Shown here: positions 3,246 to 21,885 of the stretch, in pieces | Layout: every line of letters begins with the position of its first letter | Position numbering within the stretch: the first letter of the stretch is position 1 | From: Candidatus Wildermuthbacteria bacterium | Lineage (GTDB): Bacteria > Patescibacteriota > Minisyncoccia > Minisyncoccales > UBA10102 | Reading direction: 5' to 3' | Length of the DNA: 64,000 nt | Assembly: GCA_016186115.1 (NCBI GenBank) | Contig: JACPMK010000002.1 | Location: 200,983-264,982, forward strand | Program-made: the position numbers and the translations under genes | Notes under the pieces: model-generated | What the model saw: only the letters and a program-made list of their open reading frames with translations | What the model was told of the DNA's origin: nothing | Database searches by the model: none

Positions 3246-3260
3246 TTGACCCTGCTCCTT

Positions 3261-4249
<989 letters not shown>

Positions 4250-8743: not shown

Positions 8744-9805
8744 TCAGCCGTGTTTTATTTCAATAACATCCCCGTCTCTAACAACGTATTCTTTCCCTTC
8801 GGTTCGAATCAATCCCTCTGCCATGGCTTCCGCAAGGCCGCCGGCTTCCAGCAATGCATCCCATTGAATTACCGCGGCCCGAATAAAATTTTTCTCAAAA
8901 TCGCTATGAATCACCCCTCCGGCTTGCGGCGCTTTTGCTCCCCGCACAATAGTCCATGCGCGTGTTTCATCGGGGCCGGTGGTAAAAAAAGTAATGAGAT
9001 TTAATATTTCGTACGCCCGTTGAATCAGTTCTGACAAATTCGATTGCATTCCAAGTTCTTGGCGTTCGTTGTCTGAAAGTCCGGCAATTTCTAATTCCTC
9101 TTGGAGATTTACCGCAACAAAAGAGCCGTGCGCCTTTTCTATGTTTTGTTTCAGTTCCAAAGGAATATCTTGGTTTTTTGAATTCAAAAGAAAAATAATT
9201 GGTTTGGCAGTAAGAAGCTGCAGTTCATGGAACACCGGCTCGCTTTCGGGATGCGATCTTTGATATTCCGTAGCTCGTACGCCCTGTTCAAAGAATTTTT
9301 TTGCATCCTGGAGAATTTGATTCTGCGCAATAGCTTCTTTTTTTCCCCCTCGCGCCTCCTTTTCCAAAGATAGAAGTCGTTTTTCTACTGTTTCCAAATC
9401 CTTCAGAAGCAACTCGGTGTGAATGGTATCAATATCGCGCAAAGGGTCAACGCTTTCCTCCACATGAATAATATCGGGATTCTCAAAACAGCGCACAACT
9501 TCTACAATTGCTGACACTTCTCGAATATGTGTCAAAAATTGATTGCCCAACCCTTCGCCCTTATTTGCGCCGCGCACTAACCCCGCAATATCAACAAATT
9601 CGATAACCGTAGGAATGATTTTTTGTGAATGAAAAAGCGCTGCGAGCTTTTGGAGCCGCTCATCGGGAACCTCCACTACCCCGACATTGGGATCAATCGT
9701 CGCGAACGGATAGTTGGCAATATTAACTTCTTTTTTTGTCAGCGCCTGAAATAATGTGGATTTCCCCACATTCGGCAGCCCCACAATTCCGACGGATAAG
9801 CTCAT
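8744..9805 (-). CDS. ychF: Ribosome-binding ATPase YchF
   Basis: 353-aa ORF with P-loop [11 protein letters not shown], motifs [10 protein letters not shown] and DIAGLV, and a C-terminal TGS-like end. Confidence 0.95.
   Translation of the reverse strand: MSLSVGIVGLPNVGKSTLFQALTKKEVNIANYPFATIDPNVGVVEVPDERLQKLAALFHSQKIIPTVIEFVDIAGLVRGANKGEGLGNQFLTHIREVSAIVEVVRCFENPDIIHVEESVDPLRDIDTIHTELLLKDLETVEKRLLSLEKEARGGKKEAIAQNQILQDAKKFFEQGVRATEYQRSHPESEPVFHELQLLTAKPIIFLLNSKNQDIPLELKQNIEKAHGSFVAVNLQEELEIAGLSDNERQELGMQSNLSELIQRAYEILNLITFFTTGPDETRAWTIVRGAKAPQAGGVIHSDFEKNFIRAAVIQWDALLEAGGLAEAMAEGLIRTEGKEYVVRDGDVIEIKHG
9738..9805 (-). repeat. Direct repeat copy 1 (first 68 nt of ychF)
   Basis: Identical at 66 of 68 positions (my count) to 14651-14718. 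Similarity drops sharply beyond that point. Confidence 0.85.
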
Positions 9806-9842
9806 AATTTTTACGCTATAAGGAGAAAATGTTATTGTCTAT

Positions 9843-10850
9843 TTAGTATACAGGTTTTTCTCCCAGCATCCAGTCAATCTCTTGTCGTAGTTTCTTCGTA
9901 TTACCATGGGTAATCATGCCAAGATACGATTGAACCGTTGCCATGTTCCTTCGTTTACGTTCTATGCCACGGAACATCCTTCGCTTCGTCACGGTTCGCA
10001 GTACCCGATGATCTGGGAAATGTACCCACCCGAGAAAATCTACTCCAGAAGCAACGGTTTGTATAAATGTTTTGTCGGGATGCAATTGAAGCCGCAAGTT
10101 GCTCCATAGAAAATCGCTGATTTTCGAGAGTATGTTTTCAAGCAATGTTCTATCTTTTGACAGAATAATAAAATCGTCAGCATAACGAATATAATATCTT
10201 ACCTTCAGTTTGTGCTTCAGAAACTGGTCAAACCTATTCATATATACATTCACCAAGAGCTGGGATGTAAGGTTGCCAAGCGGCAATCCAATTCCATTTC
10301 TGGTTGAATAAAAACTCCGAACGATTTGAGAAATAAGCCATACGGTATCTTCGTCTGGTATAAAACCTTTAATGATTCCCAAGAGTTTGCCTTGGTCTAT
10401 TGAGGCAAAGAACTTTTTTATATCAGATTTTAAGACCCACGCTGTTTTTGTATTATTTTTAGAAGCCCTATATGCAAAAACGCGAAACCTGTTGATTGCC
10501 CTATGTGTTCCTTTCCCAAGTCTGCAGGAATGAGAATCGGCTATAAAAGTTCTATCAAAGAACGGATATAATCTTCTGTAGAGAGCGTGGTGCAGCAATC
10601 TGTCTCTGACACTTGCCTTGTGAATGCTTCTTGGCTTCGGATCAGATATATTAAAGGCGTGATAAGGTGAATGTTTATACGTTTTGGCCACAAGGTCATC
10701 GTGGATAGAAATGATATTGCTCATCAAATTGTGTTCAAACTCTTGTACATCTTGGCGAGACCGTTTGCCAGTTACAAACTCTTTCCAAGCTTCAAGCAGA
10801 TTTTCAAGAGAAATGATATAATTATAGTTATGAGTGAATTGAACGTTCAT
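9843..10850 (-). CDS. Diversity-generating retroelement reverse transcriptase
   Basis: 335-aa ORF with RT motifs 1-7, including YIRYADDFIIL and the DGR-diagnostic motif 4 LPLGNLTSQ ([I/L]GxxxSQ). No maturase or endonuclease domain. The cognate TR/VR pair lies adjacent. Confidence 0.9.
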   Translation of the reverse strand: MNVQFTHNYNYIISLENLLEAWKEFVTGKRSRQDVQEFEHNLMSNIISIHDDLVAKTYKHSPYHAFNISDPKPRSIHKASVRDRLLHHALYRRLYPFFDRTFIADSHSCRLGKGTHRAINRFRVFAYRASKNNTKTAWVLKSDIKKFFASIDQGKLLGIIKGFIPDEDTVWLISQIVRSFYSTRNGIGLPLGNLTSQLLVNVYMNRFDQFLKHKLKVRYYIRYADDFIILSKDRTLLENILSKISDFLWSNLRLQLHPDKTFIQTVASGVDFLGWVHFPDHRVLRTVTKRRMFRGIERKRRNMATVQSYLGMITHGNTKKLRQEIDWMLGEKPVY

Positions 10851-11246
10851 AAAAAATCTTTTCAGGTAAGCCCCCCCCCACGCCTTTTACCGCTTCTTCA
10901 GAAATTGAAAGAGGCATATCTTGCGTGGTACGGCTACTACCAAATCTTACCTAAACTCCATCGCCATTCTCTTGGGCAAAGGATTGATACTCTTTTTGTC
11001 GAAATCATTGAAGCTGTTGCAATGGCAAGTTTTCTTTCTCCTCAACAAAAACATCCTTACGTGCGCCTTTCCATAAGAAAGCTTGATACATTAAAAATAC
11101 TCTTGATGGTTCTTTGGGAGACAAAATCTGTTGATGATAAAAAGTACATTGCTGTCTCTATAAAAATAAACGAGATTGGCAGAATGCTTGGCGGATGGAA
11201 CGGCCAATTACAGAAACAAAACTCTCCCGATAAGAGAGAGAAATGA
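10830..11246 (+). CDS. avd: DGR accessory variability determinant (Avd, four-helix-bundle protein)
   Basis: Avd-like pattern LP..QKLKEAYLAWYGYYQILPKLHRHSLGQRID and a C-terminal NEIGRMLGGW, comparable to EVGRILGSW of Bordetella phage bAvd. It lies on the opposite strand to RT, TR and target. The ATG at 10830 is the only canonical start, and it overlaps the RT start divergently by 21 nt, so the start is uncertain. Confidence 0.75.
   Translation: MSELNVHKKSFQVSPPPRLLPLLQKLKEAYLAWYGYYQILPKLHRHSLGQRIDTLFVEIIEAVAMASFLSPQQKHPYVRLSIRKLDTLKILLMVLWETKSVDDKKYIAVSIKINEIGRMLGGWNGQLQKQNSPDKREK
10871..10879. repeat. C9/G9 homopolymer tract
   Basis: Nine consecutive C residues encoding SPPP near the avd 5' end (codons 14-17 from ATG 10830), 21-29 nt upstream of the RT start on the other strand. 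Confidence 0.9.
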
Positions 11247-11252
11247 AGTAAG

Positions 11253-11389
11253 TTGCGGGGCAGGACGAAAGCCCACCGATTGTCAGGATTCCAGACATTG
11301 TCGGGATTGCCGTTGTTGCTGTTGAGCCATAGACCATTGTCATTGTGCTCGACATTGAACACGTTGAGGTTGCCGTCCGAGTCGGTTAT
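11253..11389 (-). repeat. DGR template repeat (TR)
   Basis: 137 nt aligning without gaps to 11739-11875 (offset 486). It reads as an Asn-codon-rich frame (ITDSDGNLNVFNVEHNDNGLWLNSNNGNPDNVWNPDNRWAFVLPRN). All but one difference from the VR are at A on the minus strand. Confidence 0.85.
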
Positions 11390-11734
11390 GCACAGAGTGT
11401 CATCTCTACCACTGCCCCTTGAATACTCTCGGGGCTGTATCGTATTCGGCATCTTTAATGCCCTAACACTCTATACCAAGTAGCTTCATTTTTTGAAGTT
11501 TCTGCGTACACCGCGCTATCTCAAACCGTAGTCGGAGATACTCTGGATGTATGGATACTGGGTTCGGCAGCAGAAAACCTTGATCTTCTGCGTATTCGCC
11601 TACTTCCATTTGTATTGTATCAAAGAAAAAGCCCCGCATCCATTCTTCGCTTGCGAGCGAAGACAGATACGGGGCTACAAACTCAAGGATCAAGTTTCGA
11701 GGATCCAAAAGATCCAAGATTCAAGACCCAAGAG

Positions 11735-12379
11735 CTACTTGCGGGGCAGGACGAAAGCCCACCGAAAGCCAGGATTCCAGACACGGTCGGGATCGCCGTT
11801 GCTGCCGTCGAGCCACAGACCACTGCCATCGTGCACGACAATGAAAACGCGGAGGTTGCCGTCCGAGTCGGTGATAGGATCCATTCCGATAAGGAACCAC
11901 TCGTCCATCGGCTGGTCAAGGTACTGCTCGCGCATGGCGGGACCAACTTCACCCGGACACCTCTGAAGACCAAGCTCCAAGGCACGCTTGTAGATGAGAT
12001 CCCGTCGCGTGGCAACCTTGAAGCCCAGCTGACTGCCAGTCACAAGCACCAGGTCCACCTCAACCACTTCCTGACTGCAGGAGGTCTTGTCGAGGATCTG
12101 GCTGGCATAGGTACCGATTTGGTACTTACCCTCGTCGAGGGCCTTGCGATACTCCCTGGGCGACTTGCGAAGACCAAGCTTGACGGTCTTCCAAATCTTG
12201 AACTCGGGGACAAGGACCTGCTGATCACGCCTTAGAATGGATGCGAAGTCCCGCTCTTCCTTGATGACCTGCAAGACATTGCAGACCTCGTCAGCGTCAC
12301 GCTTCCCGTCACGGATAAGCTCTAACACTCCCGTGGTCAGATCGAGTAACCTTGCCTTCTGCTTAGTTGTCGCAACCAT
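11735..12379 (-). CDS. DGR target (variable) protein
   Basis: 214-aa ORF whose last 46 codons are the VR. The C-terminal pattern ...NGDPDRVWNPGFRWAFVLPRK resembles FGE/C-type-lectin-fold DGR targets; the fold is an inference. Spot counts suggest higher GC than neighbouring genes. Confidence 0.8.
   Translation of the reverse strand: MVATTKQKARLLDLTTGVLELIRDGKRDADEVCNVLQVIKEERDFASILRRDQQVLVPEFKIWKTVKLGLRKSPREYRKALDEGKYQIGTYASQILDKTSCSQEVVEVDLVLVTGSQLGFKVATRRDLIYKRALELGLQRCPGEVGPAMREQYLDQPMDEWFLIGMDPITDSDGNLRVFIVVHDGSGLWLDGSNGDPDRVWNPGFRWAFVLPRK
11739..11875 (-). repeat. DGR variable repeat (VR)
   Basis: Counterpart of the TR with 19 mismatches, 18 at TR adenines. This changes 13 codons (for example N to R, I, D, S or F). 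The 3'-terminal 27 nt (11739-11765) are invariant and GC-rich, as expected of an IMH-like end. Confidence 0.85.
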
Positions 12380-12544
12380 CTTGAACCGTCCTTTCGCTCC
12401 GGTTTTCGCGGAGGATACAATGTGCTATGCGATAGATAGATCTACCGCATTCAAGATATATATAGCATAACTACTTAGAAAAGTCAAGCTTTTTGCGGTA
12501 CATTCTACTCCGAATCGCAAGTAATTTACCCAAGCCAGCCGCTA

Positions 12545-13552
12545 TTGGATACAATGGATGGCATGGTAAAACATATAACCGACAGCCAGAGAAATGAAAT
12601 CTCCGTGCTCAAACGGGCAGGACATACGCAAAAAGACATTGCCAGGATGCTTGGCAAAGATCCTTCAGCGATATCCCGAGAATTACAGAGAAACAAAAGC
12701 GACGCAGGCAGGTACTTAGCCAGAGGCGCTAAGCTGAAAACCAAGGAGCGAAGAATACAAGCGAACAAGAGGTTTAAAAAGATTGAACACAACACAAAGT
12801 TAAGAAAGTACGTTGTTAAAAAATTGAAGAAGTATCTATCTCCCGAGCAAATAGCTGGCCAATGGACCAAAAGCCATCAAAATCAGCGCATCGGCAAAGA
12901 CACCATCTACAAGTTTGTGTATGGAAAACGAAAAGACCTGGTAAAGTATCTGCGGTGTCAGAAAGGCAAGTACCGGCGCAGATATGGCACCAGGATCAGG
13001 GAAAAACAGCGAGAAGAGAGTAAAAAGCGAAGAATAGACGTGAGACCGGAAATAATCAACCTGCGCCAGAGAATCGGCGACTGGGAAGGCGATACGGTCA
13101 AGGGCAGCGGCAGATCAGGGCACATTATCACCTACGTAGAAAGAAAGTCGGGGTATCTAGTGGCCGGGGAAGCAGAGAATGCAACGGCAGAGAACATCAA
13201 CGCGTTTACCATGGGAGAGTTTAACAAGATTCCTCGCGGCAAGAGACTATCTATTACCTATGACAATGGGTCAGAGTTCGCGGGGTATGCTACCATAGAA
13301 CAAAAGACTGGAATGACCGCGTACTTCGCCTTTCCGTACCACTCATGGGAACGGGGAACCAACGAAAATACCAATGGATTGGTCAGACAGTACTTTCCGA
13401 AAGGAACCGACTTTACCGATGCGTCTCTTTCAGCAATCAGGGAAGCTGAACAGAGGTTAAACTCCAGACCAAGAAAAACGCTGGGCTTCTACACTCCATC
13501 AGAGAGGTTTTACCAACTAATCACCGGGAAGAAAATTGCGTTGGAAACTTGA
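12545..13552 (+). CDS. IS30-family DDE transposase
   Basis: 335-aa ORF with an N-terminal HTH (QRNEISVLKRAGHTQKDIARMLGKDPSAISRELQRN) and a DDE core (GDWEGD...DNGSEF...ENTNGL). I could not define the terminal inverted repeats by eye. Confidence 0.9.
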   Translation: MDTMDGMVKHITDSQRNEISVLKRAGHTQKDIARMLGKDPSAISRELQRNKSDAGRYLARGAKLKTKERRIQANKRFKKIEHNTKLRKYVVKKLKKYLSPEQIAGQWTKSHQNQRIGKDTIYKFVYGKRKDLVKYLRCQKGKYRRRYGTRIREKQREESKKRRIDVRPEIINLRQRIGDWEGDTVKGSGRSGHIITYVERKSGYLVAGEAENATAENINAFTMGEFNKIPRGKRLSITYDNGSEFAGYATIEQKTGMTAYFAFPYHSWERGTNENTNGLVRQYFPKGTDFTDASLSAIREAEQRLNSRPRKTLGFYTPSERFYQLITGKKIALET

Positions 13553-13572
13553 ATTCAGCTTGCGCAAGAAAA

Positions 13573-13595
13573 AGGGCAAGCAGGTACTGCTTGCC
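13573..13595 (+). terminator. Hairpin after the transposase gene
   Basis: Perfect 10-bp stem GGGCAAGCAG/CTGCTTGCCC about 20 nt after the stop. Only a weak T tract follows. Confidence 0.4.
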
Positions 13596-13807
13596 CTTAA
13601 TGGGGAAAGGGCTGTTCGCCTAGCGAGGTCCCCATATATCCACTATAGACGAATTCCAATATGAATGTCAAGTGCAACGTCAGGAATCAATGTCTCATAG
13701 CTTCCCTGCCTTGCCTTAGCGGGAGGCCGGAAACCATAATCCACTCCCCTTTGGAGCGGGGGCGGGAGCGCTATTTCAAACGAAAAGGGAACTAGCTTTG
13801 TCTCTGG

Positions 13808-13836
13808 ATGTCGGGTTGTGAGCTGACCATACCTAC
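13808..13836. repeat. Conserved site, copy A (ATGTCGGGTTGTG-agctga-CCATACCTAC)
   Basis: The 13-nt left arm and 10-nt right arm are identical to copy C; the 6-nt spacer differs at 2 positions. It lies 25 nt 3' of the DUF5615 toxin stop. Confidence 0.8.
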
Positions 13837-13860
13837 GGATAGTGCAGACATTAATATGGG

Positions 13861-14226
13861 TTACAGGAGGGGGCGCGAACGGACACTGCCCGGCTCGATT
13901 ACAATTATCCGTTTACGGAAGTCTTGTTCCTCCATTCCTTCAATCAACCTTTCAACTTCTTTATAAAGGGTAGTCACCGAAACTTCATTGGGAAATCGCA
14001 AAACAACCAAACCGAGCAGTTGAGTTAATGGGAACCTAGTGGGATTGGCAAATCCGAGATCTTTTGTAACAATAACGGCTTGCTTGGCGACCGCGTAGTC
14101 AAAAACGACTTCGTCGGGTTGACCGCGAAGTTCCTGTATGTTTTTTACGCATTCTGCCTCAAATCCTTTTTCTTCAAATAAAATCCTTATTGAAGATGTG
14201 ATATTTTCATCAATAAGAAAAATCAT
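13861..14226 (-). CDS. DUF5615-type (PIN-like) putative toxin
   Basis: 121-aa ORF starting MIFLIDENI..., with a 1-nt overlap onto an upstream DUF433-like gene, which is the usual pairing for this family. Confidence 0.65.
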   Translation of the reverse strand: MIFLIDENITSSIRILFEEKGFEAECVKNIQELRGQPDEVVFDYAVAKQAVIVTKDLGFANPTRFPLTQLLGLVVLRFPNEVSVTTLYKEVERLIEGMEEQDFRKRIIVIEPGSVRSRPLL

Positions 14227-14450
14227 TATTTGGCTATGAGCATTTCTTCGCCGACAAGCTTTGCGGCATATTTCAAAGCGGCTAAAACTTGCGCGCGGGT
14301 CAATCCATACTCTTTCATCACCGCTTCAGTTGTATCCCCTGCGGCAATATGGCCAACGACAACCTCCACCGGCACTCTTGTTCCGGTGATCACAGGTTTG
14401 CCAAACTGAACTTTTGCATCTACTGTAACTTGGGGGAAAATCTCCTTCAT
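14226..14450 (-). CDS. DUF433-type putative antitoxin
   Basis: 74-aa ORF with FGKPVITGTRVPVEVVV and a C-terminal HTH-like EYGLTRAQVLAALKYA, characteristic of DUF433. Confidence 0.7.
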   Translation of the reverse strand: MKEIFPQVTVDAKVQFGKPVITGTRVPVEVVVGHIAAGDTTEAVMKEYGLTRAQVLAALKYAAKLVGEEMLIAK

Positions 14451-14484
14451 ATAGGTTCATTGTATTCAAAACTTGCCGGAAAAG

Positions 14485-14718
14485 TCAAGCCAAACCCGCA
14501 ATATCATAAAATTCTACAATGGCAGGCACCACTTTTGCCGAATGAAAAAGCTGGGCAAGTTTATCAAGCCGTTCGTCTGGAACCTGAACCACGCCCACAT
14601 TAGGGTCAATGGTAGCAAAGGGATAATTTGCTATTGTTACCGGCTTTCTCGTCAGCGCCTGAAACAACGTGGATTTCCCCACATTCGGCAGCCCCACAAT
14701 TCCGACGGATAAGCTCAT
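14485..14718 (-). pseudogene. Truncated second copy of the ychF 5' end (77 codons)
   Basis: [51 protein letters not shown]...DIAGLA* is collinear with YchF residues 1-77 and stops right after the DxxG motif. The first 68 nt are nearly identical to ychF; the rest is diverged. Confidence 0.85.
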
Positions 14719-14751
14719 ATCATAAATATCCTATCATAAAACTCTCTTTCT

Positions 14752-14796
14752 CAAAAGAAAAGACCCTCTGCCCCGGTATAGAACCAGGACAGAGGG
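14752..14796 (-). terminator. Rho-independent terminator of purL
   Basis: On the minus strand CCCTCTGTCCTGG-ttctata-CCGGGGCAGAGGG forms 13 bp (two G-U pairs), followed by TCTTTTCTTTT, 29 nt after the purL stop. Confidence 0.65.
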
Positions 14797-14824
14797 CTTT
14801 ATTCAGCAAGACCACATATGGCTG

Positions 14825-17800
14825 CTACTTAGCGCACCATTCGTAGGCGTTGCTAAACATTTTGAGCCAAGGGCTTACCTCCATTCTCCGCCATTCCTCT
14901 GGCATCCAGGGCCACTGCCACAAACGGAAACAACGTTCTGGATGAGGCATCATCGCAAGATGACGTCCGTCCGGAGAGCACAGAGCCGTAATCCCGAGTG
15001 GCGAACCATTCGGATTGTACGGATACACTTCCGTTCGATCGCCGTATGGATCGATGAATGCGAGAGGCGAAAGCTTGCGCTCTGAAACCTCCTGCGCGAC
15101 CGACTGATCAGGGTAGACCAGCAAGCCTTCACCATGAGCGACCCACACACCGAGCTTCGTCCCTTCCATGCCGGCAAGAAGCACCGACGGGCTAGGCAGA
15201 ACTTCCACCTGTACCCATCGAGACTCAAACCGGCCCGAAGTGTTGTGAACGAATCTCGGCTGCTTTTCACCGGCGATCCCTTTCCATGGAACCCATCCGA
15301 GCAGCGCCATCAGCTGACAGCCGTTGCACACGCCGAGCGAGAACGTATCCTTGCGGGCGTAGAAGCGGTCGAACATCTCCCTCAGCTTCTCATTGAAAAG
15401 AATTGTCCCTGCCCATCCTTTCGCGCTATCGAACACGTCCATGTAGGAGAAGCCACCGGCAAAGATTATGCCCTGGAATTGATCCAGATCGATCCTGCCT
15501 TCAAGGAGATCACTCATCGTGACATCCCATGGAGCAAAACCGGCAGCTGCACATGCAGCCTGCATTTCTCTGTCGCCGTTCGTGCCTTCCTCGCGCAATA
15601 CTGCAACGCGAGGCTTGTCCGACGCCTCCAAAACTTCCGGAAGCGTTGCCACTGGAGTAAACGAGAGCTGATACGACGGAGCCGTACCGATGCCGGGAAG
15701 CTGGTCATCGTGACCAGAATGTTCTTCTTCGGCACACGCAGAGTTCATCTGCAGCCCTTCGATCTTGGCACTTGTCGCCTCCCACCAGCACCGGAGTTCC
15801 ATCGTCGTACTTCTGAACAGTTCTCCGGTATCTTTCGCATCGACGCTGCATGCTGTGCTGTCGAGGGTGATTCCGATCATCGAGATCGGCACTCCGAACG
15901 ATTCGCAGATTTCAAAAACCCGCTTTTCATTCTCGGTCCCGAGTTCAATGACGAACCCGAGCTCCTCGCCAAACAGACTCGCCAGAGCTTCAGCAGCATA
16001 AGGGATGCTCACGCTGAATCCGCACCGACTCGCCATACACATCTCGGCAACTGCGGTTATGAGGCCGCCATCGCTTCGATCATGTAGAGACAGAATCAAC
16101 CTTTCGTCGATCATCTGCTGCACCGCAAGAAACTCGTTCTTGAGGAGTTTGGGATTTTCAACGTCAGGCGACTCATCGCCGAGCTGGTCGAACGCTTGAG
16201 CCAAAGCTGAACCGCCGAGGCGATTTTTACCCTGTCCAAGATCGATGAGTGCCAACGCACTTCGCCCTGGTTTCTTAATGTCCGGCGTGACCTTCTTCGT
16301 GATGTCGGGCACGGGTGCGTATCCGAGCATCACCAAACTTCCGGGAGCCTTTACGAGCTCTCCCGAAATCGTCGCAGCCATTGAAAGGCTATCCTTTCCG
16401 CCATCAACCGCGATACCGAGCCCGACCATGAGGTCAGACATAGCAACCGCAGCGTCATAGAGGAGGGCACCTTCGTGAGGCAGCTTCGCAGGCCACATCC
16501 AGTTTGCACGGCACCGGATTTCTCCGATGTCGCTGATCCGAGCCGAAGCCATGTTGGTCAGCATTTCTGCCACCGCCATTCGGGCTCCGGCTTTTGCATC
16601 GATGAGCATCTTGATCGGCTGTTCGCCGACCGCAGAAGCACTTCCTGTAAGAGCGAAGTGACTCTGCGCATTGATGCTGACATTCGCAATCGGAATCTGA
16701 GCGATCCCGCAGCATTGCTGCTGCGCTACGAGCCCAGTGACACTACGATCCACCTTGTGAACCAAGAATCCCTTAGAGCCCACGCCAGGAAGTTTGAACA
16801 CCGCCTGGATTGCTTCGCCGACAGTGACATCCGGCAAACAGAGAGGTTTGAAGCCTTCGGTCCGCCGTGTTGACTCGAACGTCTTCTGAGGCATGTTCGT
16901 GAGAATCTGCTCCAGGTTCAGTTCGACGGACGTTGTCCCGTTTTTAGTGTCTTCGACAACAACGTTTCCACTGCCATCAATTTCACCGAGGACTTCGCAG
17001 TTGACGCGCTCGCGTTTGCAGACCGACTTGAAAAGCTCGATCTGCTCCGCCCTGATCAGGAGTCCGTATCCCTCTTGGAATTCGGCGCTCCAGATTTTGA
17101 GGACGGACATCGTCTTATCGCCAAGCACGATGCCACGAATGTCGATCTTGCCGCCAAGTGGCTCAAGCAACTCCGTGAGGACATTGCTCGGACCGCCGGC
17201 GCCTTGATCGTGAATGCTCGAGATGGGATTCTTGTCTCCCATTTCGACGCAGGCCCGAATTACTCGGTTCGCACGATTCTCCATCTCCGCGTTGCCGCGT
17301 TGAACGGAGTTGAAATCGAGGTCCTCGGTATTCTCGCCCTGCATCATGCTTGAGGCTGAGCCTCCGCCTACTCCGATGGGGTAAGCAGGACCGCCGATGC
17401 GCACGATGAGCATTCCAACTTCAGACTTCTCCTTCGCAGTATGTCCGTCGAACAGATGTCCAACGCCACCGCTGTAAAGGATCGGCTTACGTGGCTCGCG
17501 CCATTCGCTTCCGAGTGTCTGACCGAAAGTTCGGGTAAAGCCCAGTGTGAGGGGTTCGCCGAACTGATTGCCGTAGCTCGATACGCCGTTGCTGCCCTCG
17601 ATGAGAATCGAAAGCGGCGAAGCGTACTTCGACGGCTTGTCCTTGCCGACAACCTCGCCCGGAATTTGATATCCAGGAATGAAAAGGTTCCCGACAAAGT
17701 AACCGGCGACGCCGATGCCAACGATGCCTCCGCGTCCGACCGCACTGTTGTCGCGTATCCGTCCGCCGGAACCCGTTTGGGCTCCAGGGAAAGGCGCGAC

Positions 17801-18646
17801 GAAGGTCGGATGGTTATGCGTTTCCGCGGTGCAGGTGATGTGAACCACCTTATCGAGAATTCGCATTTCCGAAGGCTTGCCCGGAGTGACTGGAAGGATC
17901 AGGCGTGTGTCAAATCCCTTGATCACGCCGGCGTTGTCTTTGAAGGCAACGAGGCTGCAGTTGTCACTGCCGAGACTTTTCAGCGGTCGCTGAACGATCT
18001 CAAACAACGTCTCCTGCATTGGTGTTCCGTCGATGACGATTTGGCCTTTGAAGTACCAATGCCGGCTGTGCTCGCTGTTTGCGTTGCCCAGCTGGAACAA
18101 TTCGACATCGGTCGGATTCCTGCGAAGGACTTCCGCAAAGAGATGTTGATAGTACTCAAGATCCCGGGCATCCATGCCAAGGCCAAAAGCACCGTTCATC
18201 TCCTCGAGCGCGACTTTTCCGCGACCCATGAGGTCGATCACTCGGACATCTTCCGGCGTGGTACCGGTGTCAAAGCTCTCGATCCCGTTCGGGTAGTGCT
18301 GCTCGGTCATCCGATCAAAACGAGTCTTGAGGATGTCTGCCGACTGGCCGTTTCCGGCAGCGTAGCGGTGAGTGCGTTCAATGCGCGTGATCTGCCAAAG
18401 CCCCATGGCCTGACAAATCGATACGGCATTCGACGAGAACGGAGTCTCGATCGAAAGCCGGGGTCCGATTTCCACAGCTTCCGAAGCTGAGATGTAAGGT
18501 TCGATTCCGGTGTTACCGGGCTCGAACGTTTCTGCGATGAGCCATTGGAGCTGCTTGAGCTCCGGCTCGGACAACTGATCTATGGTCTCGATGTAGAAAC
18601 CAAGATCCAAGCCGTCATTGATCTGGCGGTACATGCGATAGATCAT
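14825..18646 (-). CDS. purL: Phosphoribosylformylglycinamidine synthase, single-chain large form
   Basis: 1273-aa ORF with an N-terminal domain, duplicated PurM-like synthetase domains, and a C-terminal glutaminase domain (GVCNGCQLM nucleophile, HGEG, PHPER). It appears intact. Sampled lines run 55-60% GC. Confidence 0.95.
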   Translation of the reverse strand: MIYRMYRQINDGLDLGFYIETIDQLSEPELKQLQWLIAETFEPGNTGIEPYISASEAVEIGPRLSIETPFSSNAVSICQAMGLWQITRIERTHRYAAGNGQSADILKTRFDRMTEQHYPNGIESFDTGTTPEDVRVIDLMGRGKVALEEMNGAFGLGMDARDLEYYQHLFAEVLRRNPTDVELFQLGNANSEHSRHWYFKGQIVIDGTPMQETLFEIVQRPLKSLGSDNCSLVAFKDNAGVIKGFDTRLILPVTPGKPSEMRILDKVVHITCTAETHNHPTFVAPFPGAQTGSGGRIRDNSAVGRGGIVGIGVAGYFVGNLFIPGYQIPGEVVGKDKPSKYASPLSILIEGSNGVSSYGNQFGEPLTLGFTRTFGQTLGSEWREPRKPILYSGGVGHLFDGHTAKEKSEVGMLIVRIGGPAYPIGVGGGSASSMMQGENTEDLDFNSVQRGNAEMENRANRVIRACVEMGDKNPISSIHDQGAGGPSNVLTELLEPLGGKIDIRGIVLGDKTMSVLKIWSAEFQEGYGLLIRAEQIELFKSVCKRERVNCEVLGEIDGSGNVVVEDTKNGTTSVELNLEQILTNMPQKTFESTRRTEGFKPLCLPDVTVGEAIQAVFKLPGVGSKGFLVHKVDRSVTGLVAQQQCCGIAQIPIANVSINAQSHFALTGSASAVGEQPIKMLIDAKAGARMAVAEMLTNMASARISDIGEIRCRANWMWPAKLPHEGALLYDAAVAMSDLMVGLGIAVDGGKDSLSMAATISGELVKAPGSLVMLGYAPVPDITKKVTPDIKKPGRSALALIDLGQGKNRLGGSALAQAFDQLGDESPDVENPKLLKNEFLAVQQMIDERLILSLHDRSDGGLITAVAEMCMASRCGFSVSIPYAAEALASLFGEELGFVIELGTENEKRVFEICESFGVPISMIGITLDSTACSVDAKDTGELFRSTTMELRCWWEATSAKIEGLQMNSACAEEEHSGHDDQLPGIGTAPSYQLSFTPVATLPEVLEASDKPRVAVLREEGTNGDREMQAACAAAGFAPWDVTMSDLLEGRIDLDQFQGIIFAGGFSYMDVFDSAKGWAGTILFNEKLREMFDRFYARKDTFSLGVCNGCQLMALLGWVPWKGIAGEKQPRFVHNTSGRFESRWVQVEVLPSPSVLLAGMEGTKLGVWVAHGEGLLVYPDQSVAQEVSERKLSPLAFIDPYGDRTEVYPYNPNGSPLGITALCSPDGRHLAMMPHPERCFRLWQWPWMPEEWRRMEVSPWLKMFSNAYEWCAK

Positions 18647-18662
18647 GGCTCTCCCCTTTCTT

Positions 18663-19031
18663 TTAGCCGCGTGGGAAAAGTATCCCCGCGACCTGTTTTG
18701 CTACCGCGAGGATTGCGTGCTCTCCCTCACGCACGAGGGGTTCGGAACGTATCAGTTCGCGAACTCGGCTCTCTGAGAACGCAAGGAGCGTCTCAATTTG
18801 CAGCCTGTGTTCTTGCGGGAGAACTCTCTCTTGGAGTGTTGCCACATTGTCGTCAGGATTGATGGAGATTGTGATCCGTTGTCGAACTCAGGCGCCACCC
18901 GCATCCGGTTTTGACGCAATGACGAGCACCGGTTCGACTCGCGAGAGGAACCCGGACTTCACCGCCCGGAGAATCTCACGCATAGTCGTTCCGCCGCCTG
19001 AAACGAGCATAGCAATACGCAGTTTGTCCAC
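18663..19031 (-). pseudogene. purN: Decayed phosphoribosylglycinamide formyltransferase remnant
   Basis: A GTG start at 19031 follows an AAGGAG SD and gives VDKLRIAMLVSGGGTTMREILRAVKSGFLSRVEPVLVIASKPDAGGA, a PurN N-terminus. An in-frame TGA at 18888-18890 follows. The same frame then continues ...ITISINPDDNVATLQERVLPQEHRLQIETLLAF, the PurN C-terminal RV..QEH region. The catalytic middle (roughly 100 codons, including the NIHPSLLP region) is missing. Confidence 0.7.
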
Positions 19032-19145
19032 GCTCTTCTTCTCCTTCTTATTTAGTTGGGAATGTGCGACTCTGCTTCTCTATTAACAGATTCCAGTTAA
19101 GAAAACAACTGACAAGAAAATCTGTAAATCGCTGTGGGTATAAAC

Positions 19146-19176
19146 AAAAAAAACCGCCAATTTGGCGATTCTTTTA
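19146..19176 (-). terminator. Weak-stem terminator with a long U tract
   Basis: A short CGCC...GGCG stem is followed on the minus strand by nine T residues. It lies downstream of the NYN gene and site B. Confidence 0.4.
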
Positions 19177-19208
19177 AACGGGCTACTCCTGCGAAACTTA
19201 AACCCTTT

Positions 19209-19286
19209 CAGAAAGTTGGATTTTGAACTCAAAGAGTACCAAGCTCTGGCTTTCTTCGTGTCGGGTTGTGTTCCAACCATGCCGCA
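19209..19286. repeat. Conserved site, copy B (extended element)
   Basis: 19209-19283 aligns without gaps to 20943-21017 at 61 of 75 identities (my count). The core is GTGTCGGGTTGTG-ttccaa-CCATGCCGCA at 19258-19286. Confidence 0.8.
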
Positions 19287-19433
19287 AGAAAGCTTCCTAA
19301 CGAAAACATCTTAACACAAAATGTCCTCATGTAAATCAGTGGCTCAGAAACCTAACCACTTGACAGGAAAAACGAGGGGTGTATACTAAAAATACTAGAC
19401 CTGAACGGCATCCTTCGTGGGTGCCGTTCGCTT

Positions 19434-20078
19434 TTATAGGCCGCTACTCTCCCTATCTTCGTATTCCAGATATGTCCGCAAATATTCAAAGTCGAGAAAC
19501 TTACTCCCCGCGAAGCGCTTGATTTCTTTAGCCGTACGCGGCCCGCGAGCGAGCACCAAGACCTCTCTGCCGCTCTCGCATAGGTACTTGAACACCGGCA
19601 AGAAGTCGCCGTCGCCAGAGAGTACAATGGCACGATCGAAAGAATCTTTTTCGGTCGCCATCATCAAAGTCATATCTACATCGCAATTCGCCTTACGGAG
19701 CGGGTTGCCATCCATATCGTTGTAGGTCTTAACCGGCTTCAAGACGAGTGTGTATCCAAACGATTCCAGTTTGAGGAAGAAACACACGCGATTGTGATGG
19801 CGCGCGACAAGCTTGAGCTCGGCGTCGTTCATCTGATCACCGCGTTCCTTGACGTACCTGGAGAGATACTGGTCGAGCTTACGGACATTGACTGTCTTTT
19901 CAGTAAGATAGTCAAACGGAAAGTGATGGATCTCCACGCCGCCGAAATAGTAGAGCTGCGAGACGCCGTACTTCCGTTCCAAATAGCCGCGCAGTTTTTC
20001 ATAATCAATCTTCCAACCAAGGGATTTCTCGCCGCCGTAAAAAAGATTTGAAGCATCAATAAATGCAAATGTCTTCAT
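19434..20078 (-). CDS. NYN (LabA/DUF88-like) domain nuclease-fold protein
   Basis: From internal Met MKTFAFIDASNLFYG..., with later acidic motifs CDVDM and LSGDGDF typical of NYN/PIN-like domains. The longer ORF-track start (20333) would overlap the upstream gene. Confidence 0.65.
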   Translation of the reverse strand: MKTFAFIDASNLFYGGEKSLGWKIDYEKLRGYLERKYGVSQLYYFGGVEIHHFPFDYLTEKTVNVRKLDQYLSRYVKERGDQMNDAELKLVARHHNRVCFFLKLESFGYTLVLKPVKTYNDMDGNPLRKANCDVDMTLMMATEKDSFDRAIVLSGDGDFLPVFKYLCESGREVLVLARGPRTAKEIKRFAGSKFLDFEYLRTYLEYEDRESSGL

Positions 20079-20172
20079 GGATTTATCATAGCAAAAGATA
20101 GTTTCTTTGGCGATTGGTGCAAAAGAAAAGGCCGCTTGGCGAACCATGCGGCCTGAATAGGATACATCCTCG

Positions 20173-20529
20173 TTATTCGACTGGCTTATGTTCCACGAAC
20201 TCGTTCTTGGCGTGGGTTTTGAGCCAGATGCCAAAGTGGTAGGTCTTGATTCCAGGACATCTCTGAATGAGAAGCTCCTTGATGCGCTCGGCGCATTCCT
20301 TTTCTTGATCGATCGTGCGAACGCCAGAGTCAATCACGATCTCCAGAGGCAATGCGTTATCGGTGAACTCCGGGTCCTCAACAGAAGAGTAGAAGGCCAC
20401 ATCTTCAGCGGGATATCCTAACGCTTCAGCAATGGTCGTTCGAATTCGACTCTTCTGAAACCGGAGCAAATCCTTGAGATTTTGGGTACCGGTACCGCTC
20501 GCGAGGAATCTTGCTGTTATCTGTGGCAC
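20173..20529 (-). CDS. Hypothetical protein; possible tautomerase-superfamily member (Met-Pro start)
   Basis: 118-aa ORF starting MPQITARF. A Pro-1 start is suggestive of a tautomerase, but no other motif can be verified by eye. Confidence 0.3.
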   Translation of the reverse strand: MPQITARFLASGTGTQNLKDLLRFQKSRIRTTIAEALGYPAEDVAFYSSVEDPEFTDNALPLEIVIDSGVRTIDQEKECAERIKELLIQRCPGIKTYHFGIWLKTHAKNEFVEHKPVE

Positions 20530-20560
20530 TGCACACCTCCTTCAAAATAACCTTGGGAAT

Positions 20561-20857
20561 CTACTTGAGAAGACCCATCTGACGCCTCCAATAAAGATCT
20601 CGAATCTTCTCAATCATCAAGGGGCATACTGTATTTGAGTGGGTAACCTCGGCCCGCGTTTCCGGAAGATCAGAGGATTGGATCTCTTGACCCAGAGCTT
20701 TAGCTTCCACATCGGTTAGATTTCCAGCATCTTTATGCTGGAGAACATCCTCATAACCCATATCTCGTGCCCATACCTCACGACTCTCCGAACTATCAGA
20801 GAAAACGATCCTCCCATGAGCTTTGCATTGAGGGCAAACCTCAAAATGAATATCCAC
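20561..20857 (-). CDS. Hypothetical protein with a CPQC motif
   Basis: I prefer the GTG start at 20857 because AGGAGG lies 7 nt upstream. The ORF track starts at a TTG at 20932. No family recognised. Confidence 0.4.
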   Translation of the reverse strand: MDIHFEVCPQCKAHGRIVFSDSSESREVWARDMGYEDVLQHKDAGNLTDVEAKALGQEIQSSDLPETRAEVTHSNTVCPLMIEKIRDLYWRRQMGLLK

Positions 20858-20942
20858 GGGCTTTCCTCCTTGGAGCCAGATTTGTTGTTCTAATGCTGGT
20901 GATATGATATAGCAAATCGTCGCTTTTGTCAAACTGCCGCGT

Positions 20943-21020
20943 CAGAAAGTTGGATTTTGAACTCGAATGGTATCAAGCTCTCCCCTTCTTCATGTCGGGT
21001 TGTGAACTGCCCATACCTAC
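20943..21020. repeat. Conserved site, copy C (extended element)
   Basis: Core ATGTCGGGTTGTG-aactgc-CCATACCTAC at 20992-21020, beginning 9 nt 3' of the pyrH stop. The extended part matches copy B. Confidence 0.8.
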
Positions 21021-21028
21021 AGACAAAG

Positions 21029-21748
21029 TCATGATATGAGAGTTCCGGTAAATTCTTTGCCTTCAATGGCTTTTTTCAAATTCTCAAGATCGGTTCCCTT
21101 TACGGTTTTTACCACAAGGTGGATTTCTTCAGCCAACCTTGCCGCCACGGGGTCAATGGGCGAAGCAAGCCCCGGCTTCCATTTAGCAGGAATGAGTTTC
21201 CGGTATGTTTGCCAAGAGATTTCCGAAAATGGTTTTGCGTCTTTGTAGATCTTTGGATCTTTATCGTATACGAACGGAGTATCTCCGGCATCAATCATTT
21301 CTTTGGCATGGAATTTTTGCGCCAGCCGCACCGCAACATAGTCGGTGGACCAGCCCGGCCTCCAACCAGAAGCGATAAATAGTTTCGCCTTTTCCGCTTT
21401 CAGATCGAGGGCTTCCCCAAACGACGGGTCGTGATCAATCACAACCGGATGCGCTTCTTTTACAAAAATAGTGCGCATCAAATGGGCGTTCAAGCGAGTC
21501 GCGTGGATTCCAATCCAGTCCAAGTCCTCATCGGTCATCTTCACCACTTCTGCCGCAGAGCGATTATATACCCGCGCAGTTTTCCCTCCTCCGATTATCA
21601 AAATAAATCTTCTCCCATTGTTAAGCTCCTGTAATAAAAATCTCCGAAACTCTCGGAGAAATGAAACATTAATACCATCCTCGTCTGTCAAATGCGGAAC
21701 CACGATGGAACCCCCAAGCGCTATAACAACGAATTTTGAGTTGTCCAT
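21029..21748 (-). CDS. pyrH: Amino-acid-kinase family protein, archaeal-type UMP kinase-like
   Basis: From Met MDNSKFVVIALGGS, with IIGGGKTAR, GIHATRLNA and GWRPGWSTDYVA, matching the archaeal PyrH pattern. The ORF-track start at 21841 is less likely. Confidence 0.6.
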   Translation of the reverse strand: MDNSKFVVIALGGSIVVPHLTDEDGINVSFLREFRRFLLQELNNGRRFILIIGGGKTARVYNRSAAEVVKMTDEDLDWIGIHATRLNAHLMRTIFVKEAHPVVIDHDPSFGEALDLKAEKAKLFIASGWRPGWSTDYVAVRLAQKFHAKEMIDAGDTPFVYDKDPKIYKDAKPFSEISWQTYRKLIPAKWKPGLASPIDPVAARLAEEIHLVVKTVKGTDLENLKKAIEGKEFTGTLIS

Positions 21749-21885
21749 ACCCTGCCAGCCATTATATCCGCTTTTGCTCCCCGTGTCTATACCTCTATGA
21801 ATAAGAATATCCTCCGCGACAAACGCACAGAGGATTTTCATATTATTCCCCTATCACTGCGCAGAGTCCTGAAAATTTCCAGGAG

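What the first reader, a model, noticed from the sequence alone, without database searches (positions are those of the whole stretch)
13808..21020. Three same-orientation copies of a conserved site (conserved arms, variable 6-nt spacer) delimiting GC-richer gene modules
The copies are A at 13808-13836, B at 19258-19286 and C at 20992-21020. A and C share an identical 13-nt left arm (ATGTCGGGTTGTG) and an identical 10-nt right arm (CCATACCTAC) around a 6-nt spacer that differs (agctga versus aactgc). B keeps 12 of 13 left-arm positions and 7 of 10 right-arm positions, with spacer ttccaa. B and C additionally share about 50 nt on one side, giving 61 of 75 identities over the whole element. Each copy lies 9-150 nt 3' of a minus-strand gene (DUF5615 toxin, NYN gene, pyrH). 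Together they partition the accessory DNA into two modules: A-B holds the TA pair, the ychF fragment, purL and the purN remnant, and B-C holds the NYN gene and two unknowns. C abuts the first core gene, pyrH. Conserved arms with a variable central spacer suggest a site-specific-recombinase target, with modules accreted in tandem at one att site next to pyrH. No recombinase gene is in the window and the arms are only weakly inverted (about 6 of 10). On the minus strand each copy also begins with ATGG and a short conserved frame, M(G/V)(S/G)(S/T)QPD.
Basis: seen in the sequence. Interest (0 to 1): 0.65.

Follow-up and report, generated by a model that had tools for sequence, protein, structure and literature searches.

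The report
Serine-integrase junction scars upstream of ychF
The three repeats are junction scars left where mobile DNA was inserted by a large serine integrase into the first codons of the housekeeping gene ychF. Each scar carries the cut-off tail of the integrase gene, because in this family the integrase gene itself spans its own attachment site.

Summary
The three same-orientation copies are real (3 hits against 0.02 expected). Each is part of a 100-150 nt element, here called X, on the minus (gene-sense) strand.

X has three parts:
- the displaced first 5-6 codons of ychF (M.LS[I/V]G);
- an invariant half-site, ATGG-N6-CACAACCCGACAT;
- in the -1 frame, the last 27-55 codons of a large serine recombinase (LSR) gene.

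About 24 homologous copies occur in Patescibacteria (CPR). In the eight loci that reach ychF, X lies 0.6-10.6 kb upstream of it. In intact elements (L053, L064/L065) the LSR gene ends by running into ychF. Joining its body to X restores the C-terminus seen in full-length homologues. At least 68 of the 120 best homologues end in the -1 frame of the ychF P-loop.

attP is a 50-bp imperfect palindrome inside the integrase gene, centred on the GG of a ychF glycine codon.

The window holds three decayed, integrase-less modules. Relatives have none (pyrH directly followed by ychF) or one.

The anchor gene (ychF, not pyrH) and the site anatomy are wrong.

The parts
20929..21032 (-). X_C: an attL-type junction. 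B arm (old ychF start, ATGACTTTGTCTGTA) at 21018-21032, its ATG overlapping the pyrH TGA. Central GG at 21016-21017. P' half-site at 20992-21015. Orphan integrase tail YGQFTTRHEEGESLIPFEFKIQLSDAAV* running down to 20929.
   Evidence: (nhmmer E=1.5e-27).
19198..19298 (-). X_B: an attL-type junction. B arm at 19284-19298, AGGAAGCTTTCTTGC, with the ATG decayed to AGG. Central GG at 19282-19283. P' half-site at 19258-19281. Tail HGWNTTRHEESQSLVLFEFKIQLSERV*.
   Evidence: One search shows that its upstream DNA and its B arm are colinear with L038's NYN-ychF intergenic region and ychF start, and that the two diverge right after GGNAT.
13700..13851 (-). X_A: an attL-type junction. B arm at 13834-13851 (ATGTCTGCACTATCCGTA). 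Central GG at 13832-13833. P' half-site at 13808-13831. Long integrase tail of a different class: YGQLTTRHPETKLVPFSFEIALPPPLQRGVDYGF...
   Evidence: tblastn of P0076 residues 526-579 gives 50% identity, E=4e-12; P0060 residues 547-601 give E=2e-10. Also.
8744..9805 (-). ychF, the gene whose 5' end is the attachment site. Present start is the native short type: ATGAGCTTATCCGTC at 9791-9805, GG at 9789-9790.
19299..20928 (-). Module C, the one farthest from ychF. It holds a promoter-like site, two unknown ORFs (20561-20932 and 20173-20529) and the NYN gene (19434-20333).
   Evidence: The NYN block is 93% identical to L038. NYN is also adjacent to X in Saccharibacteria loci L025/L048.
13852..19197 (-). 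Module B. It holds a terminator-like hairpin, a purN remnant (18888-19031), purL (14825-18646, GC 56%), a ychF 5' fragment (14485-14718), a DUF433 antitoxin (14226-14450) and a DUF5615 toxin (13861-14226).
9806..13699 (-). Module A, nearest ychF. It holds an IS30-family transposase ORF (12545-13552, + strand) and a diversity-generating retroelement: target gene 11735-12379 with VR 11739-11875, TR 11253-11389, RT 9843-10850.
21029..21841 (-). pyrH, the original upstream neighbour of ychF. It is not the integration target.
   Evidence: pyrH is directly followed by ychF in L071/L072. pyrH is followed by X in L038 and L047.

Best explanation
Each copy is the left junction (B-O-P', attL type) made when a mobile element carrying a large serine recombinase (LSR) integrated into ychF at the GG of the glycine codon in M-x-L-S-(I/V)-G.

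**How the site is built**
- In this LSR family the 50-bp attP lies inside the integrase gene, about 30-60 codons before its stop.
- Integration therefore does two things.
  - It leaves the old ychF start fused to the P' half-site and the orphaned integrase tail. This is the repeat, X.
  - It leaves the integrase body reading into ychF in the -1 frame at the other end.
- The 'spacer' is the poorly constrained stretch between the distal and proximal motifs.
- In the 'right arm', CCAT is the proximal motif and the next base (A or G) completes the 24-nt half-site. CC is the crossover dinucleotide and TAC is a ychF codon.

**What the window shows**
- Three such scars head three modules stacked between pyrH and ychF.
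- All three have lost the integrase body.
- The cargo is toxin-antitoxin, NYN, purL, an IS and a DGR.

**Shown and inferred**
- Shown:
  - homology of X to LSR C-termini;
  - LSR-ychF fusions;
  - the palindromic attP;
  - colinearity of X_B with an unoccupied junction;
  - presence and absence of modules among relatives.
- Inferred:
  - the exact crossover at GG;
  - which protein domains read which motif;
  - that each module arrived by its own integration;
  - that the scars are now inert.
For: **The repeat belongs to a wider family**
- About 24 homologous X copies come from Patescibacteria genomes and metagenomes.
- Their invariant parts are GGYATGG and CACAACCCGACA.

**Two coding signals, in different frames**
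- The leader before GGY varies at third positions, including a TCN/AGC serine switch.
- The tail has mean column entropy of 0.76, 0.47 and 1.52 bits at codon positions 1, 2 and 3.

**X lies upstream of ychF**
- In every locus long enough to reach ychF, X is upstream and in the same orientation, at 0.6-10.6 kb: L029, L038, L037, L059, L025, L048 (same sequence as L025), L053 and the window.

**An intact element, L053**
- X lies at 3014.
- The cargo includes a Prim-Pol/AAA_25 gene and an AAA-plus-subtilase pair.
- The LSR gene (12044-13675) overlaps the ychF start at 13641.
- Joining the LSR body to X gives one ORF ending ...KTIHRHGQSTTRH..IPFAFTIKLPAPDW.

**Full-length homologues carry the same tails**
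- P0059, P0060, P0076 and P0114 are examples.
- Window X_A matches P0076 residues 526-579 at E=4e-12.

**Most homologues are fused to ychF**
- Of the 120 best LSR homologues, 68 fit a strict pattern for the -1 frame of the ychF P-loop.
- 32 carry the full tail.
- L064/L065 show HTH_17, then LSR, then ychF overlapped by 53 nt.

**Protein family**
- Pfam finds Resolvase, Recombinase and Zn_ribbon_recom.
- The AF2 model matches solved serine integrases at E about 1e-18.

**attP anatomy**
- attP reads ATGTCG...CCATCGG|CATGG...CGACAT, 24+2+24 bp, in L063, L068 and L066.

**Junction and empty site**
- The window X_B junction is colinear with L038's NYN-ychF junction up to GGNAT.
- The empty site, pyrH-47 nt-ychF with no X, is seen in L071/L072.
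Against: - The window has no LSR body, so activity here cannot be claimed.
- In integrase-less loci (window, L038, L048, L037, L029) the ychF start to the right of the island is the native short type.
  - It is not the longer ATGTCG... P-arm type seen next to intact LSRs.
  - Islands there are flanked by a 17-21-nt direct repeat of the ychF start.
  - A simple attP x attB event followed by decay does not predict this.
- The ychF fragment at 14485-14718 shares its first 50 nt exactly with ychF and then drops to about 70%. This points to homologous recombination also adding DNA here.
- The NYN block is 93% identical to L038 while the flanks are 63-69%. The locus is therefore a mosaic, and not every module need have integrated in situ.
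- On their own, the tails of B and C match LSR proteins only weakly (E 0.02-0.3). Their assignment rests on homology to A and to the family profile.
Confidence: 0.85

Rival explanations
1. One old LSR junction was copied around the locus by segmental duplication or homologous recombination between strains. On this view the three copies do not record three integrations.
For: - ychF and its fragment share an identity tract of 50 nt, 65 of the first 68.
- The locus is a mosaic: the NYN block is 93% identical to L038 while pyrH and X_C are about 69%.
- Native-type ychF starts lie on the right of integrase-less islands.
Against: - X_A carries a different tail class (…LPPPLQRGVDYGF) from B and C (…IQLS + stop), as in different LSR subfamilies.
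- The three B arms differ from one another.
- X_B's B arm continues the sequence that in L038 is the live ychF start.
Confidence: 0.1
2. X is a functional small gene or leader upstream of ychF. It would be translated with a programmed -1 frameshift, or act as a regulatory upstream ORF, and would be duplicated along with its cargo.
For: - Coding-like variation occurs in two frames with an invariant 13-mer between them.
- X is consistently placed upstream of ychF.
- Gene callers elsewhere have called small ORFs of 46-78 aa over such fragments.
Against: - The tail is simply the C-terminus of full-length LSRs.
- The leader is the ychF start.
- The -1 frame has no start codon.
- There is no slippery heptamer.
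- Frame 0 carries TGA right after ATG-GAG in L011, L023 and L032, and after ATG-GTC in L044.
- Pfam finds nothing.
Confidence: 0.04
3. The copies are tyrosine-recombinase sites: Xer/dif-like 11-6-11 sites bounding modules, or integron attC sites.
For: - The look of two arms around a 6-nt spacer.
- Same-orientation repeats between small cassettes that include a toxin-antitoxin pair.
Against: - The arms are not inverted repeats of each other.
- The single strand forms no hairpin: z-scores were +1.8 to -2.5 and the structures were inconsistent.
- No RYYYAAC...GTTRRRY pair bounds the unit (sequence inspection).
- The associated recombinase found in relatives is a serine enzyme.
Confidence: 0.02
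4. The copies are a structured RNA, terminator or UTR motif.
For: - They lie in intergenic positions just 3' of genes.
- They are conserved at the nucleotide level across phyla.
Against: - No Rfam family reaches threshold in the window or at X in 9 loci.
- No shared fold was found.
- The consensus fold of 22 copies is only -1 to -2 kcal/mol with no covariation, and variation has a period of three.
Confidence: 0.01

Closest known systems
Large serine recombinase (serine integrase) elements: phiC31, Bxb1, Listeria A118 (comK), SPbeta, the skin element
   Same: - Same enzyme architecture: Resolvase, Recombinase and zinc-ribbon domains, with a coiled coil.
- An attP of about 50 bp that is an imperfect palindrome around a central dinucleotide.
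- Integration inside a protein-coding host gene.
   Different: - The target is the first codons of ychF, and ychF is kept intact by the element.
- attP lies inside the integrase's own 3' coding region, so integration swaps the integrase C-terminus.
- I recall that Streptomyces phage R4 may have attP in the 3' end of its sre gene. I could not confirm this in the library.
Archaeal SSV-type ('suicidal') tyrosine integrases
   Same: The recombination site sits within the integrase gene, so integration partitions the gene and leaves its pieces at the two ends of the element. Orphan pieces persist in genomes (PMC8371274).
   Different: - Those are tyrosine recombinases (PF16795).
- The review states they are found exclusively in Archaea.
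- Here the enzyme is a serine recombinase in Bacteria.
- Here only the last 30-60 codons are split off, while all catalytic and DNA-binding Pfam domains stay in the large piece.
SCCmec and other staphylococcal cassette chromosomes (Ccr serine recombinases at rlmH/orfX); from my own knowledge
   Same: - Serine recombinases insert cassettes at the end of one conserved housekeeping gene.
- Arrays build up.
- Recombinase-less pseudo-cassettes sit between repeated att sequences.
   Different: - SCC uses the 3' end of rlmH, whereas this family uses the 5' end of ychF.
- The ccr genes do not span the attachment site.
Integration-dependent immunity in mycobacteriophages (attP inside the repressor gene); from my own knowledge (Broussard et al. 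2013)
   Same: attP lies inside the 3' part of an element gene, so integration changes that protein's C-terminus.
   Different: There the affected gene is the repressor and the integrase is a tyrosine enzyme. The functional consequence here is untested.
Pneumococcal prophage integrated next to ychF
   Same: ychF's upstream side is used as an integration site, with the int gene immediately upstream of ychF (PMC8637289).
   Different: That attB is intergenic, between the DUF951 gene and ychF. The paper lists PPH005 among the tyrosine integrases and reports no split of the integrase gene.

Membership tests
Large serine recombinase attachment junction (attL type) | A cognate recombinase with Resolvase, Recombinase and zinc-ribbon domains and a catalytic serine | tested here: met
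   - P0059 and P0001 carry PF00239, PF07508 and PF13408, with the motif YxRVST.
- The fold matches solved serine integrases.
- The enzyme is present in relatives only. None is in the window.
Large serine recombinase attachment junction (attL type) | attP of about 50 bp, an imperfect inverted repeat around a central dinucleotide | tested here: met
   The site reads ATGTCG..CCATCGG|CATGG..CGACAT, 24+2+24 bp, in L063, L068 and L066. The P arms of L053 and L064 and 22 P' arms fit the same register. This rests on sequence inspection, not a statistical test.
Large serine recombinase attachment junction (attL type) | A hybrid junction: one half from the host attB, the other half from attP | tested here: met
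   - X_B is L038-type ychF upstream DNA plus the ychF start, followed by P'.
- In L053, X plus the LSR body restores one ORF.
Large serine recombinase attachment junction (attL type) | The other junction is P-O-B', with no long duplication of target sequence | tested here: inconclusive
   - Met in L053 and L064, where the P arm ATGTCG... supplies the ychF start.
- Not met in the window, L038, L048 and L037, where a native-type ychF start repeats 17-21 nt of the X leader.
Large serine recombinase attachment junction (attL type) | Recombination activity between attP and attB | not testable with these tools
   This needs an in vivo or in vitro assay.
SSV-type 'suicidal' integrases | The recombination site lies within the integrase gene, and the gene is partitioned on integration | tested here: met
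SSV-type 'suicidal' integrases | Tyrosine recombinase of the Phage_integr_3 type, in an archaeal host | tested here: not met
   The enzyme is a serine recombinase in Patescibacteria. It works like the family but is not a member.
Integron attC / Xer dif-like sites | Inverted arms that form a hairpin (attC), or an 11-6-11 partial palindrome (dif) | tested here: not met
   No shared fold was found. The two 'arms' are not complementary (sequence inspection).
Structured non-coding RNA or intrinsic terminator | A conserved secondary structure with covariation, or a GC hairpin followed by a T run inside the repeat | tested here: not met

The most novel reading that the evidence does not exclude
This LSR family may be the first 'self-splitting' serine integrase and the first in Bacteria. 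On this reading the C-terminal swap on integration acts as a built-in directionality switch. Integrase-less cassettes, bounded by X on the left and a native-type ychF start on the right, would be mobilised in trans. X would then serve as a portable attP surrogate, giving an integron- or SCC-like cassette array of defence and toxin-antitoxin genes at ychF across Patescibacteria.
Probability: 0.2. Interest if true: 0.85.

Novelty: new variant of a known kind. Interest (0 to 1): 0.6.

Why it matters
- Mobile elements of the Candidate Phyla Radiation are poorly charted. This gives a concrete and apparently common integration system. It has a defined attB (the ychF start), a defined attP (inside the integrase gene) and a recognisable scar for mapping islands in metagenome bins.
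- A review states that recombinases which disrupt their own gene occur only in Archaea (PMC8371274). A serine-recombinase counterpart in Bacteria would qualify that statement.
- It also makes a question testable: does losing the last three predicted beta-strands change integration or excision?
- Serine integrases with known att pairs are useful genome-engineering tools.
- For annotation, the small ORFs called over these scars (P0242, P0244, P0245) are better read as integrase-tail remnants. LSRs of about 545 aa that end in RNCRSAQCG-like sequence are integration-truncated forms.

Tried and rejected
- **Known RNAs.**
  - ARAGORN found no tRNA or tmRNA.
  - Rfam at gathering threshold found nothing at X. 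The only hits were LOOT RNAs elsewhere in L022 and L030.
- **RNA structure.**
  - Folding each copy on both strands gave no common structure.
  - Alifold on 22 copies gave nothing.
- **Tail as the end of a non-LSR protein.**
  - A word-indexed protein search with the three window peptides found nothing.
  - Pfam on hypothetical frameshift-fused peptides found nothing.
  - Comparison of the tail with YchF itself showed no similarity.
- **IS30 hypothesis.** I found no inverted repeats linking copy A to the transposase ORF.
- **5S rRNA and integron attC.** Resemblances I saw by eye did not hold up.
- **Viral contigs.** The core pattern has no match.
- **Chance hits.**
  - 17 of the 26 genome hits were chance matches.
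  - Fourteen of the 29 metagenome hits were not X.
    - Nine of them are one near-identical coding sequence that reads like a WD40-repeat protein.
    - Five are other unrelated sequences.
- **Strain variants.**
  - All Logan contigs carrying this pyrH are 100% identical to the window, so there is no excision variant.
  - An exact look-up of the window's YchF found nothing on record.
- **Profile search with the three window tails.** It found only small orphan ORFs and two repetitive false hits. No LSR with the short B/C-type tail turned up.
- **Literature.**
  - Searches for an LSR at ychF, or for attP inside a serine integrase gene, found no description.
  - My recollection about phage R4 could not be confirmed.


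Full report
**1. The observation**

- The pattern GTCGGGTTGTG-N6-CCAT occurs three times, against 0.02 expected from shuffles.
- A and C share both arms exactly.
- B has 12 of 13 positions in the left arm and 6 of 10 in the right arm.
- The repeat is longer than 29 nt.
  - B and C share 76 nt at 82% identity.
  - A aligns further to the left with more divergence.
- All genes in this region are on the minus strand, so from here on I read the element, called X, on that strand.
- The window comes from a Candidatus Wildermuthbacteria MAG. Its YchF is identical to P0121, on a 395-kb NCBI contig.

**2. X is not an RNA and not an ordinary gene**

- No tRNA or tmRNA was found, and no Rfam family reaches threshold.
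- The six single-strand folds share no structure, and their z-scores range from +1.8 to -2.5.
- No reading frame through X is long.

**3. X is widespread in Patescibacteria**

- A scan of one genome per species with TGTCGGGTTGTG-N6-CCATNCC gave 26 hits.
  - Nine are CPR genomes: Saccharibacteria, Minisyncoccia, Wildermuth-, Yanofsky- and Wolfebacteria, and other Parcubacteria-group MAGs.
  - Only these nine share about 100 nt of flanking homology with the window copies.
- A metagenome scan added 15 more copies.
  - The other 14 hits were not X.
  - Nine of those 14 are one near-identical coding sequence that reads like a WD40-repeat protein.
  - The remaining five are other unrelated sequences.
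- Viral contigs gave no match.

**4. Anatomy of X**

The alignment of the copies shows three parts.

- **Leader.** An ATG followed by 4-6 codons reading x-L-S-(I/V)-G, varying at third positions. One copy switches the serine codon from TCN to AGC.
- **Invariant half-site.** ATGG, six variable bases, then CACAACCCGACAT.
- **Tail.** In the -1 frame, (Y/H)G..TTRH, a stretch of variable length, then (L/F)IPFxFxI(K/Q)L(P/S), followed by several alternative endings.
  - In this frame, mean column entropy is 0.76, 0.47 and 1.52 bits at codon positions 1, 2 and 3.
  - A consensus RNA fold of 22 copies is worth only -1 to -2 kcal/mol, with no covariation.

**5. X always sits upstream of ychF**

- The leader resembles the YchF N-terminus, MSLSVGIVG.
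- X lies upstream of ychF, in the same orientation, in every locus that reaches ychF.

| Locus | Distance from X to ychF |
|---|---|
| L029 | 0.6 kb |
| L038 | 1.5 kb |
| L037 | 2.3 kb |
| L059 | 3.2 kb |
| L025/L048 | 4.3 kb |
| L053 | 10.6 kb |
| Window | 3.9-11.2 kb (A to C) |

**6. The tail is the end of a serine integrase gene**

- L053 holds an intact element.
  - The last gene of its 10.6-kb island is a 543-aa serine recombinase whose ORF runs 35 nt into ychF.
  - Joining its body to X at the shared TCCATCGG gives one continuous ORF. That ORF ends ...NYVELKTIHR-HGQSTTRHSYDNNATKFIPFAFTIKLPAPDWQTIARTNL.
- A search with that protein found 1764 homologues at E<=1e-20.
- Full-length homologues of 560-600 aa end in exactly the X-type tails.
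  - P0059 ends ...IPFTFTIKLPPPQYERMITARNSQGRILQSAPV.
  - P0060 and P0076 end ...LPPPLRSGVDYGF...
- Window X_A matches P0076 residues 526-579 at 50% identity, E=4e-12.
- Of the best 120 homologues:
  - 68 fit a strict pattern for the -1-frame reading of the ychF P-loop, for example ...RNCRSAQCG;
  - 32 carry the full tail;
  - most of the remaining 20 look like looser ychF fusions.
- A second case at the DNA level is L064/L065: D5-type primase, HTH_17, then LSR overlapping ychF by 53 nt.
- The proteins carry the Resolvase, Recombinase and Zn_ribbon_recom domains.
- An AlphaFold model of P0059 matches solved serine integrases at E about 1e-18.
  - In that model the split falls in a low-confidence linker, residues 524-541.
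  - The split-off tail forms three beta-strands.

**7. The attachment sites**

- In full-length genes the DNA around the split is a 50-bp imperfect palindrome.
  - L068 is an example: ATGTCGAGTCACTCCCTCTCCATC-GG-CATGGAGTGAACACAACCCAACAT.
  - Its distal motifs are ATGTCG and CGACAT. Its proximal motifs are CCAT and ATGG.
  - Its centre of symmetry falls on GG.
- That geometry is what is known for serine-integrase attP sites (established knowledge).
- X is therefore the host B arm plus GG plus the P' arm.

| Segment of the 29-mer | Interpretation |
|---|---|
| 13-nt left arm | Distal motif of the P' half-site |
| 6 nt (the 'spacer') | Loosely constrained stretch between the two motifs |
| CCAT | Proximal motif of the P' half-site |
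| 1 nt (A or G) | Base between CCAT and the centre, completing the 24-nt half-site |
| CC | Central dinucleotide |
| Last 3 nt | A ychF codon |

- Next to intact LSRs, the ychF start is supplied by the P arm. It reads ATGTCG..., giving N-termini MSSLKLSIG and MSGTNLSIG.
- This explains the many YchF homologues that are 3-5 residues or more longer than the native form.

**8. Gain and loss at this site**

- L071 and L072 (Wildermuthbacteria) have pyrH, a 47-nt gap, then ychF, with no X.
- L038 has pyrH, X, about 1.5 kb including NYN, then ychF.
- The window has the same NYN block at 93% identity. Where L038 continues ...GTTATGAAACTCTCTATAGG-AATCGTGGGG (ychF), the window continues ...GTTAGGAAGCTTTCTTGCGG-CATGGTTGGAACACAACCCGACA (X_B).
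- X_B's leader is therefore a former ychF start. Everything from X_B to the present ychF was added at that point.
- X_C's ATG overlaps the pyrH stop codon (ATGA), as does the X leader in L038.
- X_A carries a different tail class from B and C. This argues for separate elements.

**9. What does not fit cleanly**

- The window has no LSR body.
- In integrase-less loci, the ychF start to the right of the island is the native short type.
  - Islands there are flanked by a 17-21-nt direct repeat of the ychF start.
  - A plain attP x attB event followed by decay does not give this.
- The ychF fragment at 14485-14718 is identical to ychF for its first 50 nt (65 of the first 68). Identity then falls to about 70%.
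  - This is the pattern expected if a circular or linear piece carrying a ychF 5' fragment was inserted by homologous recombination.
- The NYN block is far more similar to L038 than its flanks are.
- I conclude that serine-integrase insertion made the X junctions. Homologous exchange anchored on ychF also reshuffles and adds modules.
- Whether integrase-less cassettes can move in trans through X is open.

**10. Comparison with what is known**

- The enzyme and the site geometry are those of large serine recombinases.
- Stacking of cassettes, including recombinase-less ones, at the end of one housekeeping gene recalls SCCmec (my own knowledge).
- A recombination site inside the integrase gene, which splits the gene on integration, is the hallmark of the archaeal SSV-type tyrosine integrases.
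  - The review states these occur only in Archaea (PMC8371274).
- A pneumococcal prophage, listed in that paper among the tyrosine integrases, uses an intergenic site next to ychF (PMC8637289).
- I found no description of an LSR targeting the ychF start, or of this family in CPR.
- A possible precedent is phage R4, which I could not confirm.

**11. Verdict**

It is wrong on the anchor gene and on the site anatomy.
- The repeats themselves are scars of a known class of enzyme.
- The family behind them is a new variant. Its attP lies inside the integrase gene, its attB lies in the first codons of ychF, and it appears common in Patescibacteria.

Noticed in passing
window 9843-12379 (minus strand): A diversity-generating retroelement. 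The RT gene is at 9843-10850 (RVT_1). The template repeat is at 11253-11389. The variable repeat, 11739-11875, lies at the 3' end of target gene 11735-12379. All 19 mismatches inside the repeat are A in TR changed to another base in VR.
   Followed up: partly
window 12545-13552 (+), hairpin 13572-13598: An IS30-family transposase ORF (HTH_38 plus a weak rve match) on the opposite strand, just beyond X_A. I found no terminal inverted repeats, and nothing links it to the three copies.
   Followed up: partly
window 14485-14718 (-) versus 9575-9805: A 77-codon ychF 5' fragment lies between purL and the toxin-antitoxin pair. Its first 50 nt are identical to ychF (65 of the first 68), and identity then falls to about 70%. 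Identity starts exactly at the ATG. This suggests insertion by homologous recombination anchored on ychF.
   Followed up: partly
window 14825-19031: purL (1273 aa) has 56% GC in a genome of about 45% GC. Beside it is a 47-codon purN remnant (weak Formyl_trans_N match). The block looks foreign.
   Followed up: no
window 19360-19430 (+): A near-consensus promoter-like site (TTGACA-16-TATACT) on the + strand is followed within 15 nt by a terminator-like hairpin. It lies between NYN and X_B, and the sequence is conserved in L038. Its meaning is unknown.
   Followed up: no
window 19287-20154 versus L038 5904-6761: The NYN gene and its downstream spacer are 93% identical to L038, while the pyrH, PD-(D/E)XK and ychF flanks are only 63-84%. 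An NYN gene also sits immediately upstream of X in Saccharibacteria loci L025/L048. NYN may be a recurrent right-end gene of these cassettes.
   Followed up: partly
L068 (8445-nt contig): This contig carries a full-length LSR, an HTH_36 gene and an IstB-like ATPase gene. Its two ends share 16 nt, so it may be a free circular form of such an element. The overlap is too short to be sure.
   Followed up: no
L064 9816-10004, L065 6314-6502, L063 2434-2613: A small HTH_17 (excisionase-like) gene sits directly upstream of the LSR gene and overlaps it. It is a candidate directionality factor.
   Followed up: no
L066/L067 and proteins P0060, P0067, P0068: Close homologues of this LSR (61-65% identity) occur full-length outside CPR. 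One is in a contig with ArdC, TraG-like and tyrosine-integrase genes. Others are in Bradyrhizobium chromosomes. The L066 gene still contains the palindromic site.
   Followed up: no
L030 3757-3875, L022 6069-6189: LOOT RNA (RF03000) is present in two CPR loci, 1.7 kb or more from X and unrelated to it.
   Followed up: no
L069 (Wildermuthbacteria), between pyrH 3156-3872 and ychF 7001: 3.1 kb of other genes, including an inositol monophosphatase-like gene, lie between pyrH and ychF with no X. The interval therefore also varies by means other than this integrase.
   Followed up: no
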